DNA from: Octopus vulgaris
Taxonomy: Eukaryota
Length of the DNA stretch: 64,000 nt
Assembly (NCBI GenBank): GCA_951406725.2
Contig: OX597824.1
Location: forward strand, 9,734,001 to 9,798,000
Direction of reading: 5' to 3'
Below, piece by piece: positions 10,700 through 61,645 of the stretch. Position numbers and translations under genes: made by a program. The notes under the pieces are model-generated. The model did no database searches. It worked only from the letters and a program-made list of their open reading frames with translations, and was not told the origin of the DNA. How positions within the stretch are numbered: the stretch's first letter is position 1; each line of letters begins with the position of its first letter.

Positions 10700-10994
10700 A
10701 GGGCATTTAAAATTTAAAAAAAAGAGAATAGATTATGGGAAATCTTATAAACAGATAGATTCCTGAACTAAAACAGTCCATAAATGTGGCAGGGACTTCG
10801 GTATTGAATTTGGGATAACCAAATTAGTTAGCAGCACTAACAGACAACAGTCAATAATTGTCTATACTTATTCGCTCATAACTATCCGCTAATATGTATC
10901 CTCTTGAGGTGAGATTATCGTTTAGGTGAGCTCGATCAATTTTATTGTGGAAGTAGACATGCTTTATTAAGAAGTTCACTTCACAGACATGTAG

Positions 10995-11615
10995 TTTCAG
11001 TTCACGATACGCATTCAGTCGTGACTGCTTTTGAGCTTCTGTAATCAAACGAGGCACAAATTTTGCTGCAACTCTTTTCATTCGCAATTCTTCGCTCAAA
11101 ATTCGTTTGCAGGACATCCAGGACACAGCAGTCAAATCAACAAGTTCGTCAATTGTTCGGTGACGGTCCTCCAAGATCAGTTCATGAATTTTCAATGATG
11201 TTTTCCTTCGTTCGGGCGGTCGACGGTCGCCCTGAAAGAGGGTGGTTCTCAAGCGACAATTTCCCATTCCTAACGCGTGAAAGCCACTCGTAAACCTATG
11301 TTTTGTACATGGCAGCGGACTTCTAAGCTGCTTGAAGCATGAAAACTGTTTCGGCTGCCGTTTTCCCCAGCAGAAAAGAAAATTTCACGGAAATACGGTG
11401 TTTCTTCGATTCAGCCATCGCAAAAATCGACGAACAGAGGCGAAGCACTGCAAAACAAAGATGCACCGCGTGGCAGTAAGACCGCAGTCGACGACACCAG
11501 TCAGCAGACTGATGCCTGAGGGTCGCATCAAGTGGTTTCTATCGATCGAAACCAGAACTACAACGGATTTGTCCCCCAAAGAATGTGTCCAGTTACCTGT
11601 GGGTACCCCCGCGTA
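10995..11615 (-). mobile_element. Mariner transposon 5-prime half (pseudogene: TIR plus HTH region)
   Basis: TA + CGCGGGGGTACCCACAGGTAACTGGA TIR at ~11588-11615; ATG at 11418 reads MAESKKHRISVKFSFLLGKTAAET..VYEW..SGRPST..ILEDRHRTIDEL..ILSEELRMKRVAAKFVPRLIT (WVPR-type motif), with stops and a frameshift; no DD34D domain. Confidence 0.85.
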
Positions 11616-14419: not shown

Positions 14420-15365
14420 GTTACTCGAAAGCAGGCAATAACAAATTATCAAATGTGTCAAGTAGTGTCTTCTCTTGTAACTCAAAGAGACAACATTCTC
14501 TTTAGAATGCAAGCTGTACCCAACAATGCTGTCTTTTGGGACAGCAGCTCCAATATTCTTAACATGTTTTTCAAAGCCCTTGGAAATTGCTCCTAATGTT
14601 CCAATTACACCGGTATCACCATTACTTTCCTCATGCCCCATAAATTTCGTTTATCGTCCCGTAGTAGCTGGTATTTCTCAATCATTTCTGTTTAATTAAC
14701 TTTCACCCTCGAATCGCTAAGGCTCTACACCCTGAGATTAGGTTGTCTATAGTTTCAATCTCATCGTTACAGAATCGGCATTTTGGATCAGCTCCATTTT
14801 TTATCCCATTGGCTTGGTAGTTCCGGGTTAATAACCTTTGGTCTTGAGCAGCTAATATGAGACCTTTACTCTCTGCTTTTATGCCAGAGTTTCGTAACCA
14901 TTGGTGCGTTTGTTTCTGGTCGACATCAGCCTGTTTGCTACGGGCCACATACTTGCCATGCAGAGGTTTCTGTTCCATCTGCTAGCTAAATTTTCATGTG
15001 CTTTTGTCTCTGCAATTAATTTTATTTTCTTTGCAGCAGCATTTGGCGCATTTCCTTCAACCTGATCAATCTGGTTGGTATCTAAGAGATCAGTAGCGAA
15101 TTTTTTGCTCTCTTTCAGAATAGATTGAAGTTTTTCCGGTCTTTCGTGTTTTTCAACAAGTTCTAGCATCCAATCGTTGGTTGTTTCAAGGTATTTGGCA
15201 AGTCCGATTGTGGTGGTTTTGTACGTAAGTTCAATCTGGATCAAGCCTCGACCTCCCTGAGCTCTGGGAAGGTAAAGACGATCCACGTCTGCCTTTGGAT
15301 GGTGCATCTTATTACAAGTCAGTAGCTTGCGGATTTTTCTGTCAATTTTCATTATTTCACTGGTA
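14420..15365 (-). mobile_element. R4/Dong-clade non-LTR retrotransposon, 5-prime truncated pseudogene
   Basis: IDRKIRKLLT..HHPKADVDRLYLPRAQGGRGL (RT thumb); KPLHGKY; AAQDQ.L.TRNY; CRFC..ETIDNLISGC (zinc-knuckle remnant); EKYQ..LWGM..IPV.IGTLGAI (RLE end); frameshifts. Confidence 0.88.
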
Positions 15366-15371
15366 TTATTG

Positions 15372-15374
15372 TTA

Positions 15375-15422
<48 letters not shown>
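15372..15422. repeat. (TTA)n microsatellite at the LINE 5-prime junction
   Basis: Direct read. Confidence 0.95.
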
Positions 15423-20700: not shown

Positions 20701-20764
<64 letters not shown>

Positions 20765-20769
<5 letters not shown>

Positions 20770-20915
20770 GAATTCACGAATAAACCAAAAGACGAAGACA
20801 GGTGGTGTAGAAAACAAACAGATGTATTAGTATAACACTCAGGAATTGAAAAAAGTCTTTTCATTTCGAGCCTACGCTCTTCCACAGAAAGGGACACAGA
20901 AAGAAACAAGGAGAG

Positions 20916-20918
<3 letters not shown>
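20765..20918 (-). mobile_element. Short (TA)n-embedded repeat (family E) with a variant hammerhead-like motif; Penelope-like terminus
   Basis: Minus CTTT-CTGTGGA-A-GAGC gtag GCTC-GAAATGAAAAG; homologous to 38310-38610 and 54640-54795; (TA)n on both sides. Confidence 0.6.
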
Positions 20919-20982
<64 letters not shown>

Positions 20983-36311: not shown

Positions 36312-36960
36312 TAAGATTGTTTCGATTCTGCTGCCACACATCCTACAAATGGGCGATTTGCTACTCTTATCTATTTGGAACTTGGTGCAATTAGTTCCCA
36401 GAACTTGTTCCTGGGCGCTTCATATCAATACCTCAGTGCATCCTTTCAGATCACTTTTTCTTTGCCATCTCCAAGTGTTGTTCTTCTCTTTTCCTTCGAT
36501 TTCTCTGAAGTACTGCTCGTGCAGTGGTTTCATTTTCCAGTTGTTTATTCTTTCTTCTTCAAATTGTTTCTTAAATGTTTGTGGATACATCACATTTTCG
36601 GTAGGTATTGTATTGTTAATTCTGACAGCGGCAAACAAGGATTCCCTCTGCTGTTTGATGTACCATCCCAGACTGCTCCTCTCGTTGACAAAACAGATCT
36701 TGCATCCTATGAGGCATCTTCCTCGCGCTTCTACAGTCTGTCAGTATCACTTTTGGGGTGTAAATCCTTGTTAATTGTCATCACTTTTCTAGTTTTCCTC
36801 CCCATTTCCTCAAGCTCTTTCATTGTCCACCAAACAACACCTGCACCGTATCGCATCAAGGAAACAGCCCATGTGTTGATTGTCCTGATTTTGTTTCTTT
36901 CCCATTGACTCTACTTCCCATAATTAAAATTGTTCTTCTGAGATATTCTCACCTGAAGCT
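36312..36960 (-). mobile_element. Second R4/Dong-clade LINE fragment (pseudogene)
   Basis: NKIRTINTWAVSLMRYGAGVV..RKTRKVMT..LHPKSDTDRL; WKMKPLHEQYFRE; AQEQ.L.TN; CRMC..IETI; stops and frameshifts. Confidence 0.85.
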
Positions 36961-38309: not shown

Positions 38310-38486
38310 GTTGGCGATTTTCTTCCTCCGTCTTCCCTTCCTTTGGACTCTCCTCTCTTTCTGAAGAAGAGCAAGGCTCGAAACGTTAAATCATCTTTCC
38401 TTCCTTTCCTGAGTGTCTGATAATACAATACTTGTACCACGTCCTCGCTTTATTGTTTTTCCTTGTTTGTTCTTCTTTGTTTGGAT

Positions 38487-42622: not shown

Positions 42623-42707
42623 CATATACATACATATACATATATACATTTAAAATAAGGGTGAAAACATTGAATATTAATTTGTTTCAGAAAAAAATAT
42701 TTTATAC

Positions 42708-42779
42708 ACATATAAGAGGGATGACCTGTAAGTGGCCATCTAAATGGATGCCCACTTATTGGTCATCCCTCTTATATGT
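42708..42779. repeat. Near-perfect hairpin
   Basis: CATATAAGAGGGATGACCTGTAAGTGGCCATC pairs with GATGCCCACTTATTGGTCATCCCTCTTATATG. Confidence 0.85.
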
Positions 42780-42809
42780 ATGTAATATATATATACATAT
42801 ATAATAAGT

Positions 42810-43693: not shown

Positions 43694-43835
43694 ATATTGT
43701 TATATTTCGGAATGGTCATTTTGCCAGTTTAGCCAATAAAAACACACGCACTGAAGCAAAATAACACCAAATATATAGTGCGTGTGTTTTTATTGGCTAA
43801 ACTGGCAAAATGACCATTCCGAAATATAACAATAT
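43694..43835. repeat. Perfect 59-bp inverted repeat with a 24-nt spacer
   Basis: 43694-43752 is the exact reverse complement of 43777-43835. Confidence 0.95.
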
Positions 43836-43844
43836 ATATATATA

Positions 43845-44225
43845 TACATACAAAATTTAGAGGGCTGATCACTAAAAGTGGACTGTCTATACGCTAAAAA
43901 TAGACGTCAACTTGCCATTACCACGAAGAATGTCTTCTCAAGAAAAATCTCAGCAAAAAACCAAAATGTAAAAATAAGCAAGACAAATGAAAATATATGA
44001 AAATTAAAAACGATTAGATATGTCCCATTAGATTCATAGGTAATCGTACATAGGTAATCGTTTTTTATTTCGTATATTTTCATTTGTCTTGCTTATTTTT
44101 ACACTTTGGTTTTTTGCTGAGATTTTTCTTGAAATTCATTCTTCGTGGTAAATGACGATTTGACGTCTATGTTTAGCATATAGGCTGTCTACTTTTAGTG
44201 GCCAGTCCTCTAAATTTTGTATGTA
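43845..44225. repeat. ~170-bp-arm imperfect inverted repeat
   Basis: Arms 43845-44016 and 44055-44225; CATAGGTAATCGT duplicated at the centre. Confidence 0.92.
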
Positions 44226-46170: not shown

Positions 46171-46333
46171 GACAGGCTTCTTTCAGTTTCCGTCTACCAA
46201 ATCCACTCACAGGGTTTTGGTCGGCCCGAGGCTGTAGTAGAAGACACTTGCCCAAGGTGCCACACAGTGGGACTGAACCCGGGACCATGTGGTTCGTTAG
46301 CAAGCTGTTTACCACACGGCCACTCCTACGCCT
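45652..46333 (-). mobile_element. SINE B interrupted by SINE D-T3 (45880-46130)
   Basis: B 3-prime half 45652-45862 and 5-prime half 46167-46333 flank a D-headed copy matching 13642-13890. Confidence 0.82.
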
Positions 46334-46444
46334 GAACATAATATTAGAGTAAATAACATCCTCGACACTCGCGGTGCTATGATACTCGGTAGTATAAAAC
46401 TATTTTCGTCGCCTTGTATTGCTATCATGTAATGTTGCTGTCTT

Positions 46445-46920
<476 letters not shown>

Positions 46921-51326: not shown

Positions 51327-51647
51327 TGAGGGCGCGTGGCTTAGTGGTTAGGGCATTCGGCTCATGATCGTAAGGTTGTGAGTTCGATTCCCGGCGACGC
51401 GTTGTGTCCTTGACCAAGACACTTTATTTCACGTTGCTCCAGTCCACTCAGCTGGCAAAAATGAGTTGTACTTGTATTTCAAAGGGTCAGCCTTGTCACT
51501 CTCTGTGTCACGCTGATTATCCCCGAGAACTACGTTAAGGGTACACGTGTCTGTGGAATGCTCAGCCATTTGCACGTTAATTTCACGAGCAAGCTGTTCC
51601 GTTGATCGTATCAGCTGGGACCCTCGTCGTCGTAACCGACGGAGTCT
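51327..51647 (+). mobile_element. SINE family D head plus tail T2
   Basis: TGGCTTAGTGG A box and GAGTTCGATTCC B box; TSD AAACACAACAC(G/A)AG; nearly identical to 61321-61642. Confidence 0.87.
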
Positions 51648-53963: not shown

Positions 53964-54270
53964 TGGAGGCACAATGGCCCAGTGGTTAGGGCAGCGGACT
54001 CGCGGTCGTAGGATCGCGGTTTCGATTCCCAGACCGGGCGTTGTGAGTGTTTGTGGAGCGAAAACACCTAAAGCTCCACGAGGCTCCGGCAGTGGGTGGT
54101 GGTGATCCCTGCTGTAATCTTTCGCCACAACTTTCTCTCACTCTTTCTTCTGTCGGCCTGCTCGCATAGATAGCGGGGTGGCGTCATTTGAAGGCAAAAC
54201 AATGCGAAGCGCATTGTGACCAGCGATGTGTGGCAACATCTGATAGCCTGGTCAGTCACGGTGGTCACGG

Positions 54271-54273
<3 letters not shown>
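53964..54273 (+). mobile_element. SINE family C head plus tail T1, full length
   Basis: TGGCCCAGTGG A box and GGTTTCGATTCC B box; T1 tail runs into (TA)n. Confidence 0.87.
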
Positions 54274-54307
<34 letters not shown>

Positions 54308-54311
<4 letters not shown>

Positions 54312-54523
54312 CGTGACCACCGTGACTGACCAGGATATCAGATGTTGCCACATATATATATCTATATATATATATATATATCACCGTGACCACCGTGACT
54401 GACCAGGCTATCAGATGTTGCCACACATCGCTGGTCACAATGCGCTTCGCATTGTTTTAGCCTTCAAATGACGCCACCCCGCTATCTAAGCGAGCAGGCC
54501 GACAGAAGAAAGAGTGAGAGAAA

Positions 54524-54525
<2 letters not shown>
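54308..54525 (-). repeat. Two inverted duplications of the adjacent SINE C tail
   Basis: 54308-54351 and 54380-54525 are reverse complements of parts of 54130-54273, separated by (TA)n. Confidence 0.9.
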
Positions 54526-54568
<43 letters not shown>

Positions 54569-54639
54569 TTTATATATACAAACGTACACACATGCACACA
54601 CACACACTTTAGACCACTAACCTCAACACATTTTTTCAT

Positions 54640-54795
54640 TCTCTCTCTATTTATTTCCTCGTTTTCCTTTCTGTCGAAGAGCGTAGGCCCGAAACGTAAA
54701 AGACTTTTCCTTTTTTCCCGAGCGTCAGACTAATACACTTGCTTGTTGTTCTTACACCTGTCTTCGTCTTTGTTTTTCTATGAATTTTAACTATA
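54640..54795 (+). mobile_element. Family E repeat with a variant hammerhead-like motif
   Basis: CTTT-CTGTCGA-A-GAGC gtag GCCC-GAAA-CGTA-AAAG; CACCTGTCTTCGTCTTT downstream as in other E copies. Confidence 0.6.
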
Positions 54796-55422: not shown

Positions 55423-55453
55423 AGAAAGAGAGAAAGAGAGATCAACAAATTTT

Positions 55454-55749
55454 AGGTTCATTAAAATGTGTGTGACGTATTTCAGCTTCTGAAGGCAAAT
55501 TCAATGCAGGTTACCATGGAGAAAAAAATTATCGCTTACGTTACAAAGGTGTAAAATCGGCATACCTGCTCAGTGTCTCTCAGACGCGTTTCTGGCTCTT
55601 TGGCTTTTCTCAGTTGGAGATACCTGAGAGAGATAACTCGAGCAGTTGTTTTTACACCTGTTACTATTAGCGACAATTTTTTCTCCATGGTTACTGGAGA
55701 AAATTTGCATTTAGAAGTTGAAATGTCTCAAACACATTTTAATGAACCT
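55454..55749. repeat. ~300-bp fold-back element with a degenerate hammerhead-like motif in its loop
   Basis: AGGTTCATTAAAATGTG..CCATGGAGAAAAAA..GGTGTAAAA pairs with TTTTACACC..TTTTTTCTCCATGG..CACATTTTAATGAACCT; minus-strand loop CTGAGAA..GAAA-CGCG-TC. Confidence 0.8.
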
Positions 55750-56004
55750 CAGGTTCGTTTATTCTTCATCAATGCTTAGCGCTGATACCGTTGCACTTGT
55801 TCTCACCAGGCGGCTTGCGAGCGCTATTCGGTCATTGATCTTCACTGTTTTCAGAATAAATTACCGATTTAGAAGCTGCTCTTTCCGGTATTATCTTTGA
55901 AGACTGTGTTCCAGTATGGCCACATTCCAAGGATTGCAACTAGTAAAAAAAAATATGACAATAAAATAATAGAAATAGAAATATGTGTAGGTAGATGGAC
56001 AAGA

Positions 56005-57165: not shown

Positions 57166-57220
57166 TAAAAAGTAACAACAAAAGAATGATATCTCGATAT
57201 TGGATAAATAGATGATTATG

Positions 57221-57592
57221 TACAGCCTTGGCGAAAGGTATTCGGCCACCCCAATGTTTTGGGGTTCTGCTATTTCAATGTTAATGAAACTCGTGCACAT
57301 GGTAGAGTATGGTATATTTCACAATGTACAATAATTATAATATCGCTCAGAAACAGGAGAAAACCATCGTTAGAGCGCTGTGAGGACTTCAACGAGGCGA
57401 GTACTTCACAAATATCAACCATAACTGTTAGAAGAAGACTTGCAGAGTATGGTCTGAAAGGCTGTAAAGCGAGGAAGAAGCCACGAGTTTCTAAAGCGAA
57501 TATGGAAAAACGTCTCTAGTGGGCTAAAAACTACACAAATTGGACAAGTGAGAAAGTCATATGGTCTGATGAAAGCAACTATGAGGTAAGAT
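57221..57592 (+). mobile_element. Tc1-like transposon 5-prime fragment (pseudogene)
   Basis: TA-CAGCCTTGGCGAAAGGTATTCGGCCACCC TIR; ISTITVRRRLAEYGLKGCKARKKPRVSKANMEKRL*WAK..WTSEKVIWSDES (Tc1 HTH and first catalytic D). Confidence 0.85.
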
Positions 57593-59458: not shown

Positions 59459-59525
<67 letters not shown>

Positions 59526-59592
59526 GGAATTTACAAAAATACAAACCAAAGACGAAGACAGATGTATTAGTTTAACGCTCGGGTTTTACGAA

Positions 59593-59801
59593 GGTTGCCT
59601 GCAGGACTCGAACTCACAGTTCCTGCAAACATAACAGGCGTTTTGCCATTGCACCAGAGTAATCCTTCGAGTTTCTCTATCCACAAAGTTTCTAAAATGG
59701 ATAGAGAGATTCGAGGGATTGCTTTAGTCCCATGGTAGAACATTTGTTATGTTTGAATGAGATGTGAGTTCGAGTCACACAAGCATTCTTCGACTTTTTT
59801 T
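59593..59801. other. Head-to-head pair of tRNA-like units forming one long hairpin
   Basis: Minus unit 59663-59593 and plus unit 59718-59788, each with an A box (TGGTGCAATGG / TAGTCCCATGG), loop TATGTTT and B box GAGTTCGAGTC; T7 run at 59795-801. Confidence 0.6.
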
Positions 59802-61155
59802 ATCCAAAGGATTCCACGACCCAATATTTATATTCTTCTTTATAGCTGTATCTAACGAGCTTCGAGAACAACTATTCCAAAAACGACATGTATATAGCTT
59901 CCTTTTCCGTTCTATATTATTTTATTGTTTCTCTCTCCTTCTCTTTATTTTTCTTCGTTTCTGTTTTACGTGTATCTTCCACCCGTTATGTAAACATTTG
60001 TTAGAACAATATACCGTAGCATAACACTTAAATATTCAGTTATTAACAATTACGCAAGCTAGCCTTCATATTGGCTAAAGGAAAATCAACGGACATTTTA
60101 CATTTCATTCTAACTATGTATATATTCATTAACAACTTTCGTTATCAGACGATCCGAAATGATAATATCAGTATAGTAATAACGAACTTACAGCTTTGAA
60201 TAAATATTATACATTTATATTTCTATTGGTTATTTTTGCTGCATGTATTAATACTTGTATTAGATCACTCCTGTATCAGTTGAATACTTCTGCGAGCTAA
60301 ACAGCAGAAATGAATAATGAATAATGAATAAACATTCACAGTTTTGTTTTTGTTTGTTTGTTTTTGTTTTTTTAGGGGGGTGGTTTTTATGTGAAATCTC
60401 AGGCCCCCCACACAAATGCATAACATGAAATACCTACATTAACAGAACACAAGTTTTTCCTAAAATATGAGCTTTGGGACACGTATTTTTTAATATATAT
60501 ATATAAATATATATATAGAATAAAACAATATTCCTGCGGAATGCAAATATGGTTCCAAAATGGAGAAATGTCAAAACAATTTACTGGAGGTATTTGAAGC
60601 GAATGTTTTTTTAACGATATATCAAAGTAAAATACTTGAGGAAGAATTCTCCCGATAATTTTCTTGAATATCTTAGCAAATAATTGAAAACATCTCAATA
60701 ATATCTTTCTACAGTCAGAAAAAGCAAGGAACGTAAAGGAAACAGACTATAACATTCTTTTATCGAATCGCGTCGTAAATATTTAGAAAAAAAAATCTAC
60801 TAGCATTATATCAACTAACAACATTGTATTAAGTCATTTAAAGCTGTAAATAGCAGCGTATAAGTATTAGGTTAAAAACCATAGGATGGAAAATTTCGAC
60901 TTTTCCATCCAAGGCGACTCTTAATCCAATATTTATATGCTGTTATTGATAGCTTAATCCGATTTTCCAGTATTTATTTGCTGCCGTTCAAAGTTACAAA
61001 ATTCTTATTAAGTAAAAATTATATTTACGTAATTATATAAAGTAATCGTCACTAGTTTTTAATATAGACGTCAGAGCTGAAACACTTGCGTTACATAGAC
61101 CATATGTTACTTTTAAAGACCATAAAGTTAATTTCTTAAACAAACCATAATTTAG

Positions 61156-61645
61156 TGGGAGTAGCTTGCTTACGAACCACATGATTCTGGGTTCAGTCCC
61201 ACTGCGTGGCACCTTGGGTAAGTGCCTTCTGCTATAGCCTCGCGCCGACCAACGCCTTGTGAGTGGATTTGGTAGACGGAAACTGAAAGAGGCCTGCCAT
61301 ATATATGTATATATATATATGTGAGGGCGCGTGGCTTAGTGGTTAGGGCGTTCGGCTCATGATCGTAAGGTTGTGAGTTCGATTCCCGGCGACGCGTTGT
61401 GTCCTTGAGCAAGACACTTTATTTCACGTTGCTCCAGTCCACTCAGCTGGCAAAAATGAGTTGTACTTGTATTTCAAAGGGTCAGCCTTGTCACTCTCTG
61501 TGTCACGCTGATTATCCCCGAGAACTACGTTAAGGGTACACGTGTCTGTGAAATGCTCAGCCATTTGCACGTTAATTTCACGAGCAAGCTGTTCCGTTGA
61601 TCGTATCAGCTGGGACCCTCGTCGTCGTAACCGGCGGAGTCTTTC

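What the first reader, a model, noticed from the sequence alone, without database searches (positions are those of the whole stretch)
59593..59900. Divergent tRNA-like pair forming a wobble-biased hairpin, followed by a T-run and a faint hammerhead ghost
Seen: arms 59605-683 and 59698-776 pair. By my count 9 of 13 differences in the inner ~43 bp are G-U compatible on the plus strand. Each arm is a tRNA-like unit pointing outward: the plus unit has a 6/7 acceptor stem (ATTGCTT/AAGCATT), a T arm and T7 just downstream; the minus unit has a full anticodon stem CCTGT/GCAGG around TATGTTT (TGT, Thr-like). Downstream CTAACGA...AAAAC..GTA with AGCTGTA/TATAGCT weakly resembles a hammerhead. Inference: a bidirectional Pol III cassette or structured head of an undescribed mobile RNA.
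Basis: partly seen in the sequence, partly recalled or inferred. Interest (0 to 1): 0.7.

Follow-up and report, generated by a model that had tools for sequence, protein, structure and literature searches.

The report
Head-to-head copies of tRNA-derived repeat
The hairpin is two decayed, outward-facing copies of a common tRNA-derived repeat, likely joined by a fold-back copying accident and probably inert, and the supposed hammerhead ribozyme beside it lacks essential core letters and is likely just part of the repeat's tail.

Summary
The hairpin is real: a gap-free 95-bp inverted repeat (59589-59683 / 59698-59792; 72 of 95 Watson-Crick; fold z = -11). Each arm is a decayed tRNA-like unit with A and B boxes. 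Neither passes as a tRNA (Rfam 20.4 bits against a cut-off of 29; 16 and 15 of 21 cloverleaf pairs; A33, T37).

Contigs from three organism labels show that the unit belongs to an old multi-copy family (about 90 times single-copy depth). In most copies it continues upstream with other sequence, so the divergent pair is a local arrangement, most likely a fold-back duplication. A second fold-back of the same family lies at 60842-60954.

The T7 run is the decayed right half of a ~20-bp stem around the tRNA body. The hammerhead ghost fails the core test, is expected about 0.75 times per window by chance, and is absent from relatives' tails. The G-U bias is weak (11:5, p = 0.105; 18:6 pooled, p = 0.011 post hoc) and stays unexplained.

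Verdict: ordinary repeat debris. The family's tRNA-on-a-stem anatomy could not be matched to a named element and is mildly interesting.

The parts
59520..59587 (-). End of a different, (TA)n-associated repeat; it cuts off the minus unit 4 bases after its acceptor stem. The family carries a minimal hammerhead-type core at 38361; 'Penelope-type' is my recalled label.
   Evidence: Matches copies near 54750 and 20780 (local scores 40 and 44, shuffle maximum 36). The orthologous contig in X14 starts only at 59587 (record 9).
59589..59683 (-). Left arm: inverted copy of leader (59664-59683), tRNA-like body (59593-59663) and 4 bases of trailer
   Evidence: 72 of 95 identical to the right arm without gaps; 15 of 21 cloverleaf pairs
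59684..59697 (+). 14-nt hairpin loop; family sequence of the plus copy, whose truncation point is 59683-59685
   Evidence: Family contigs align from 59683-59685 and carry other sequence before it (tables 7 and 8)
59698..59717 (+). Leader (motif M inverted); pairs with the left arm or, alternatively, with the trailer at 59788-59806
   Evidence: Fold of 59698-59806, -35.7 kcal/mol; outer 12 pairs = 9 WC + 3 G-U
59718..59788 (+). Decayed tRNA-like body with A box (from 59725) and B box; non-decoding anticodon loop
   Evidence: ARAGORN; Rfam tRNA 20.4 bits, below 29; 16 of 21 pairs; summed depth about 90 times single copy in X1 and X14
59788..59810 (+). Motif M (trailer), holding the T7 run at 59795-59801
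   Evidence: 16 of 19 identical to the left-arm leader read on the + strand, 0 of 2000 shuffles as good; two relatives read TTCTCT-like letters instead of a T-run (table 5c)
59811..59851 (+). Tail unit of the family, homologous to the arms of the palindrome at 60842-60954
   Evidence: Local score 51, shuffle maximum 35 of 300; contig joints 59796, 59809, 59813 to 60921-60927
59852..59899 (+). 'Hammerhead ghost': likely a second, shortened tail unit starting with a third motif M (59860-59883)
   Evidence: M3 against M1 p = 0.013; tail unit 1 against unit 2 only p = 0.096; joint 60947 to 59860, and loose ends before 60839 carry M without the ghost's core
60842..60954 (.). Second head-to-head fold-back of the same family: two tail units joined at the self-complementary TCGA, no tRNA body
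   Evidence: Fold -48.4 (+) against -38.6 (-); outer 34 pairs = 27 WC, 5 G-U, 1 A-C, 1 other; depth 10-25 times single copy in X1

Best explanation
The hairpin consists of two outward-facing, decayed copies of part of an old multi-copy tRNA-derived repeat, which were likely joined by fold-back copying when, or soon after, one copy inserted here, and it is now probably inert DNA. SHOWN: the 95-bp inverted repeat; tRNA-like bodies that fail as tRNAs; many related copies in three organism labels; family sequence continuing upstream of the loop and downstream through the T-run and tail; a second head-to-head fold-back of the same family 1.1 kb away; the same locus in a related organism. INFERRED: a DNA or cDNA end inside the element at about 59684 folded back over a 14-base loop and was extended on its own strand, making the inverted arm. 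The left end was later cut by another repeat. Both arms then drifted (24% apart, JC 0.29, about 3.5 times the distance to the ortholog). INFERRED for the family: a non-autonomous element whose A/B boxes once drove Pol III, with the tRNA body set inside a ~20-bp inverted motif and followed by a tail of ~70-bp units. Its mobilising enzyme is not identified; a reverse transcriptase is my best guess, as for other tRNA-derived repeats.
For: Summed depth at 59704-59751 is 4927 against 52.8 single-copy in X1 and 1388 against 15.5 in X14. Of 223, 231 and 187 records laid in X1, X14 and X17, 183, 188 and 155 are under 90% alike (the tool warns that depth is not copy number). 47, 46 and 40 contigs carry other sequence before 59685, median 134-186 letters. 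The arms abut with no unique spacer or target-site duplication. By eye, both arms have G at 59755 where the legible loose-end consensus rows read A, which fits one source copy (table 7). Palindrome 60842-60954 is the same family in the same orientation. Self-inverted repeats are common here: 8 in 64 kb, this one included. Ortholog divergence is 34 of 453 bp in the part holding the hairpin against 19 of 231 in single-copy flank, p = 0.62. The longest identical run, over the B box (14 nt), is chance-level, p = 0.33.
Against: G-U outnumbers A-C on the + strand in both hairpins (pooled 18:6, one-sided p = 0.011, post hoc). Local strand-biased mutation does not explain it: 55 SINE copies give 102:120, and the 6 copies beyond 56 kb give 13:12. 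The one substitution listed inside the hairpin for the ortholog (59681 C>T) is also G-U type. The constraint test is coarse: 77 rows were hidden and the hairpin is only 204 of the 453 bp. The arms are as far apart (24%) as the plus unit is from other copies (16-20%, censored at 20%), so two independent insertions are not excluded by distance. Two contigs (X14, X17) may hold a further divergent pair. No full-length copy, terminus or target-site duplication was seen.
Confidence: 0.72

Rival explanations
1. The fold-back arose by accident, but the hairpin is now kept as plus-strand double-stranded RNA in a host transcript (an ADAR or Dicer substrate), which is why G-U changes survive and A-C changes do not.
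For: G-U:A-C is 11:5 here and 5:1 in the neighbouring palindrome, both on the + strand; pooled p = 0.011. There is no such bias in nearby SINEs. The plus strand folds better in both hairpins. The locus is present in organism E.
Against: p = 0.105 for the whole repeat; 7 of 95 control pairs are as biased. The arms carry 7 transversion and 5 A-C mismatches. Divergence to the ortholog is not lower than in the flank (coarse). By-eye polarising against family loose ends gives both C>T and A>G changes, so the bias is not fixed A-to-I editing. No host gene was identified.
Confidence: 0.12
2. The divergent pair is the built-in head of a subfamily: a bidirectional Pol III cassette that moves as one unit.
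For: Both B boxes are intact. One contig each in X14 and X17 joins 59613 to 59683 on one strand (table 5). T7 follows the plus unit.
Against: Most family contigs have other sequence upstream (47, 46, 40). The joint rests on a 21-letter side with unknown letters between. The minus unit has 15 of 21 pairs and no adjacent terminator. B-box retention is chance-level. The ortholog has an insertion after 59727, in the plus unit's A box (table 4). There is no target-site duplication around 59589-59792.
Confidence: 0.08
3. Two independent insertions of the same subfamily landed head to head.
For: Arm-to-arm distance (24%) is no smaller than distances to other copies. Palindromic SINE pairs are reported in bivalves (PMC11481361, passages).
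Against: Both copies would have to be cut within 14 bases of each other with no host DNA between. The same pattern recurs at 60842-60954, centred on a self-complementary TCGA.
Confidence: 0.05
4. A retrozyme-like unit: a tRNA-type promoter plus a type I hammerhead, now decayed.
For: A loose core-like spacing with a 7-bp outer stem is the only such site in the window. Metazoan retrozymes and Penelope-like elements carry type I hammerheads (PMC7761336, passages).
Against: G5 and G12 are both lost, there is no stem II and stem I is slipped. About 0.75 such hits are expected per window. The 12 and 10 loose ends that cover the matching place in X14 and X17 lack the core.
Confidence: 0.02

Closest known systems
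tRNA-derived SINEs (SINE2) and their palindromic pairs in molluscs (PMC11481361, passages read; PMC4758252, passages read)
   Same: tRNA-derived A/B-box unit, many diverged dispersed copies, head-to-head pairs that would form hairpins; some mollusc SINEs carry extra sequence upstream of the tRNA head.
   Different: Here the tRNA body is internal (at least 130 bases of family sequence upstream), lies inside a ~20-bp inverted motif, and is followed by repeated units rather than a recognised LINE tail or A-tail. No TSD was seen.
Helenus, TRIMs with a tRNA-like sequence inside the LTR (Kojima 2024, PMC10886601; parts 2-4 of 6 and supplement parts 1 and 8 of 11 read)
   Same: Internal, usually non-decoding tRNA-like unit with upstream family sequence and a T-rich run behind it; found in bivalve molluscs. 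Several fungal LTRs seen in supplement part 1 have CATG in the anticodon loop, as this family's loose-end consensus does.
   Different: No LTR ends, PBS, PPT or 4-bp TSD could be identified. None of five 9-10-letter motifs of this family occurs in the supplement file (line breaks can hide matches). No cephalopod host is named in the parts read.
Fold-back inversions (inverted duplications formed through single-stranded DNA hairpins; PMC7467729, abstract only)
   Same: Head-to-head duplication with a short unpaired loop, seen twice within 1.3 kb.
   Different: Here the inverted arm is short (95 and about 57 bp) and lies within repeat copies. Whether it formed during insertion or during break repair is not known.
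MITE / foldback DNA elements with modular inverted arms (recalled, no call)
   Same: Inverted motif on both sides of a core; repeated sub-units; frequent palindromic deletion forms.
   Different: The hairpin's ends are not the family's ends and have no TSD.
Non-LTR retrozymes and Penelope-like minimal hammerheads (PMC7761336, passages read)
   Same: Only a superficial spacing of motifs. A real minimal core of that type lies at 38361 in another repeat family.
   Different: The catalytic core is not met at 59852-59892 and is absent from relatives.

Membership tests
Functional tRNA gene | Covariance score at or above the curated cut-off | tested here: not met
   Plus unit 20.4 bits against 29; minus unit no hit at E up to 10; no gathering-level Rfam hit in the window
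Functional tRNA gene | Intact cloverleaf with U33 and purine 37 | tested here: not met
   16 of 21 and 15 of 21 pairs; the loop has A33 and T37 in both units and in the family loose ends. The U33/R37 rule is textbook knowledge.
tRNA-derived SINE (SINE2) | A and B boxes at tRNA spacing | tested here: met
tRNA-derived SINE (SINE2) | Many dispersed copies | tested here: met
   223, 231 and 187 records laid, most fitting only in part. Dispersal is inferred from unlike flanks; no other copy of the tRNA unit is in this window.
tRNA-derived SINE (SINE2) | tRNA head at the 5' end of the element | tested here: not met
   Shared family sequence lies upstream of 59685 in 47, 46 and 40 contigs, median 134-186 loose letters
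tRNA-derived SINE (SINE2) | LINE-derived or simple-repeat tail and TSD | not testable with these tools
   No full-length copy could be fetched
Helenus (TRIMp3) | tRNA-like sequence internal to a longer repeat | tested here: met
Helenus (TRIMp3) | LTR ends (TG..CA), PBS behind the 5' LTR, PPT before the 3' LTR, 4-bp TSD | tested here: inconclusive
   No TGG-type PBS follows the tail unit in the window or in the loose ends before 60839, but the element's ends are unknown
Type I hammerhead ribozyme | Invariant core CUGANGA / GAAA / UH | tested here: not met
   G5 and G12 read A; not found by the scanner. Core consensus recalled; general layout in PMC7761336.
Type I hammerhead ribozyme | Stem II closed by G10.1-C11.1, and stem I in register | tested here: not met
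   Closing pair off by one base, no contiguous stem II, stem I slipped; the region folds at only -5.7 kcal/mol
MITE (the hairpin itself as one element) | TIRs at the element's ends with a TSD | tested here: not met
   No repeat flanks 59589-59792; family sequence runs on past 59792
MITE / foldback DNA element (the family) | Terminal inverted repeats, TSD and a partner transposase | not testable with these tools
Fold-back inverted duplication | Inverted copy abutting its source over a short loop with no foreign spacer | tested here: met
   The 14-nt loop is the plus copy's own family sequence
Fold-back inverted duplication | Arms are each other's closest relatives | tested here: inconclusive
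   One shared non-majority letter by eye (59755); distances do not separate the cases

The most novel reading that the evidence does not exclude
The family behind this locus is an undescribed Pol III element whose RNA is a rod: a tRNA-like cloverleaf with a non-decoding loop on top of a G-U-rich stem of 20 and perhaps over 50 bp (family sequence upstream of the leader agrees with the inverted tail unit at 10 of 13 letters, by eye), followed by repeated tail units. It would be moved by a reverse transcriptase that habitually folds back at the 5' end, seeding head-to-head hairpins across the genome, some of them kept as plus-strand double-stranded RNA for editing. One contig joining tail to leader (59687 to 60840, X17) would fit tandem multimers.
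Probability: 0.13. Interest if true: 0.55.

Novelty: new member of a known kind. Interest (0 to 1): 0.2.

Why it matters
As found, it matters little. Cephalopod genomes hold thousands of tRNA-derived repeat copies (about 17,000 tRNA-derived loci in giant squid, PMC6962438, passages; SINEs 11.6% of Octopus vulgaris, PMC13282606, part 1 of 3), and palindromic pairs are known in molluscs. The practical lesson is that such units fool ARAGORN and look like structured RNAs. If the family proved to be a stem-mounted tRNA element with its own mobilisation route, it would add a form beside SINE2 and Helenus, and its fold-backs would be a testable source of double-stranded RNA in animals with heavy RNA editing.

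Tried and rejected
No whole genome was held, so copies could be seen only through contigs laid on the window.

Pattern scans found nothing in metagenome contigs, viral contigs (18, 29) or genome contigs (59). Phage BLAST gave 2 weak hits at E 0.7. A model built from the two arms found no third copy in the window (best other hit E 0.059); two family motifs were also absent at up to 3 mismatches. Five other long self-inverted repeats in the window are unrelated to this family (scores 17-24).

Expression: no RNA holder was listed. Run X23 (RNA is a guess) gave 10 records, all under 90% alike, 2 of the 8 listed on the tRNA unit. This is no evidence either way.

Rejected: hammerhead; functional tRNA pair; the hairpin as one MITE; fixed A-to-I editing as the source of the wobble (both C>T and A>G changes, by eye); regional strand-biased mutation as its source (few copies near the locus). 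The TAA on both sides of 60842-60954 looked like a TSD, but the family runs on past that end in other copies. Rfam miRNA hits are generic hairpin matches far below their cut-offs. The bacterial promoter/terminator scan was empty and not apt.

Earlier scan notes: nothing bearing on this (one search gave one unrelated bacterial note).

Paper searches found no description of this family. Repbase, Dfam and SINEBase were not available, and the 1994 paper on octopus tRNA-derived SINEs (Ohshima and Okada) was seen only as a reference, so the family may already be named.

Full report
Setting. The window is AT-rich animal DNA dense in microsatellites and SINE-type repeats, with no long genuine ORF near the finding. 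The repeat types look octopod to me; that label is recalled and comes from no call. No whole genome was held.

The observation. One gap-free register pairs 59589-59683 with 59698-59792: 72 Watson-Crick, 11 G-U, 5 A-C and 7 other of 95. The plus strand folds at -113.9 kcal/mol (z -11.1; 0 of 100 shuffles as good) and the minus strand at -105.7. Each arm is a leader of 20 bases, a 71-base tRNA-like body and 4 bases of trailer. ARAGORN calls the plus body tRNA-His(atg). Rfam gives it 20.4 bits against a cut-off of 29 and does not hit the minus body. On a standard cloverleaf the bodies keep 16 and 15 of 21 pairs, and both loops have A33 and T37. They are tRNA-derived, not tRNAs.

It is a multi-copy family. 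Contigs of four coded runs were laid on 59560-60980 at 80% likeness: 223, 231, 187 and 10 records in X1 (organism A), X14 (E), X17 (F) and X23 (A; RNA is a guess). Summed depth over the plus body is 4927 against 52.8 in single-copy flank (X1) and 1388 against 15.5 (X14), about 90-fold. The tool warns that this is not a copy number, and the 80% cut hides more distant copies. Family contigs begin at 59683-59685 and carry shared other sequence before it (47, 46 and 40 contigs at 59685). So the loop belongs to the plus copy, the tRNA body is internal to a longer element, and most copies have no inverted partner there. Only the best-supported rows were printed (77 substitution rows, 348 loose ends and 651 pieces hidden), so full copies could not be read.

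Anatomy. The T7 run (59795-59801) lies in a ~22-base motif M. M also occurs inverted in front of the tRNA body (16 of 19 identical; 0 of 2000 shuffles as good) and weakly again at 59860 (p = 0.013). The plus unit can therefore fold alone as a tRNA-like top on a ~20-bp stem (-35.7 kcal/mol). Two relatives read TTCTCT-like letters where this copy has T7 (table 5c), while an X23 loose end has T6; the run may act as a terminator but is not universal. The stretch 59789-59847 is homologous to both arms of a 113-bp palindrome at 60842-60954 (scores 51 and 40; shuffle maxima 35 and 32), and contigs join 59796, 59809 and 59813 to 60921-60927 and 60947 to 59860. That palindrome is two tail units of the same family facing outward from a self-complementary TCGA. 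The left flank 59520-59587 is the end of another repeat. The orthologous contig in X14 begins at 59587, so that piece is absent or different there.

The hammerhead. Both invariant G's are A, stem II is not closed and stem I is slipped. A scanner allowing two core mismatches misses it. Loose ends at the matching place (12 in X14, 10 in X17) run from the tail unit straight into M without the core. It is best read as a shortened second tail unit, although the direct unit-to-unit alignment is weak (p = 0.096).

The wobble bias. With strand-symmetric mutation, G-U and A-C should be equal. 11:5 gives p = 0.105; trimmed windows give 0.019-0.035. Across 227 opposite-orientation pairs in the window the totals are 1316:1255, and 7 of 95 pairs with 12 or more transitions reach 11/16. 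Against my reading, the neighbouring palindrome is 5:1 on the same strand, and with two further changes in M the pooled count is 18:6 (p = 0.011, post hoc). Regional mutation bias does not account for it (102:120 in 55 SINE copies; 13:12 in 6 copies beyond 56 kb). Chance, biased repair of hairpin mismatches, or selection on a plus-strand RNA remain; I cannot separate them.

Constraint and age. The ortholog in organism E spans 59587-60270 with 53 differences. 19 listed differences fall in 231 bp of single-copy flank (8.2%), leaving 34 in 453 bp that include the hairpin (7.5%; p = 0.62). This assumes that all full-support rows in the flank were printed, and it cannot resolve the 204-bp hairpin alone. 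The ortholog has an insertion in the plus A box. The arms are JC 0.29 apart against 0.082 for the orthologs, so the pair is about 3.5 times older than that split if neutral.

Mechanism. Shown: head-to-head copies abutting over 14 bases of their own family sequence, a second such junction 1.1 kb away, and 8 self-inverted repeats in the window. Inferred: fold-back priming of a free end inside the element, as described for inverted duplications in yeast (PMC7467729, abstract), at or soon after insertion, followed by drift. I give this 0.72. Rivals: a kept plus-strand duplex 0.12; a built-in bidirectional cassette 0.08 (single contigs in X14 and X17 join 59613 to 59683 on one strand, 21-letter side); two independent insertions 0.05; a retrozyme 0.02.

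Comparison. It works like other tRNA-derived repeats, but membership of SINE2 is not met on head position, membership of Helenus is inconclusive, and the family's ends could not be tested. Papers seen: PMC10886601 (parts 2-4 of 6; supplement parts 1 and 8 of 11 and one search); PMC13282606 (part 1 of 3; one supplement search); PMC6962438, PMC7761336, PMC4758252 and PMC11481361 (passages); PMC7467729 (abstract and outline). Searches found no description of this family, but repeat databases were not available, so novelty of the family is unproven.

Verdict. Real feature, ordinary origin; interest 0.2; new member of a known kind.

Noticed in passing
window 60842-60954: 113-bp palindrome made of two outward-facing tail units of the same family, G-U biased 5:1 on the + strand; a decayed further unit follows at about 60965-60996 (p = 0.003).
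   Followed up: partly
table 5 (X14, X17): 59613 to 59683; X17: 59687 to 60840: Single contigs suggest another divergent pair elsewhere, and a tail-to-leader (tandem) arrangement; both unexplained.
   Followed up: no
window 38361 (+); related copies at 54630-54790 (+) and 20760-20920 (-): (TA)n-associated repeat with a minimal hammerhead-type core and a 4-bp stem II, intact at 38361 and altered in the other copies; resembles the minimal hammerheads of Penelope-like elements.
   Followed up: partly
window 43846-44224, 55441-55762, 43698-43831, 42698-42789: Long MITE-like fold-back elements, unrelated to the tRNA family.
   Followed up: partly
window 46175-46564: Inverted pair of a common SINE-type repeat forming a long hairpin.
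   Followed up: partly
window 54130-54525: Near-perfect inverted repeat (141 of 142 pairs) around a duplicated 73-bp unit with (TA)n; young, or an assembly artefact.
   Followed up: no
window 51328-51485 and 61323-61480: Two similar copies of another tRNA-headed SINE; only their T-arm region resembles the unit studied (E 0.54).
   Followed up: partly
window 57208-57519 (+), 10851-11384 (-), 14879-15421 (-), 36420-36740 (-): Short frames that by recall resemble Tc1/mariner transposase pieces (first two) and non-LTR retrotransposon pieces (last two); not tested.
   Followed up: no
window 59919-59964: CT-rich stretch resembling the other end of the (TA)n-associated repeat (p = 0.001, but low complexity), in the opposite orientation to the left-flank piece.
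   Followed up: partly
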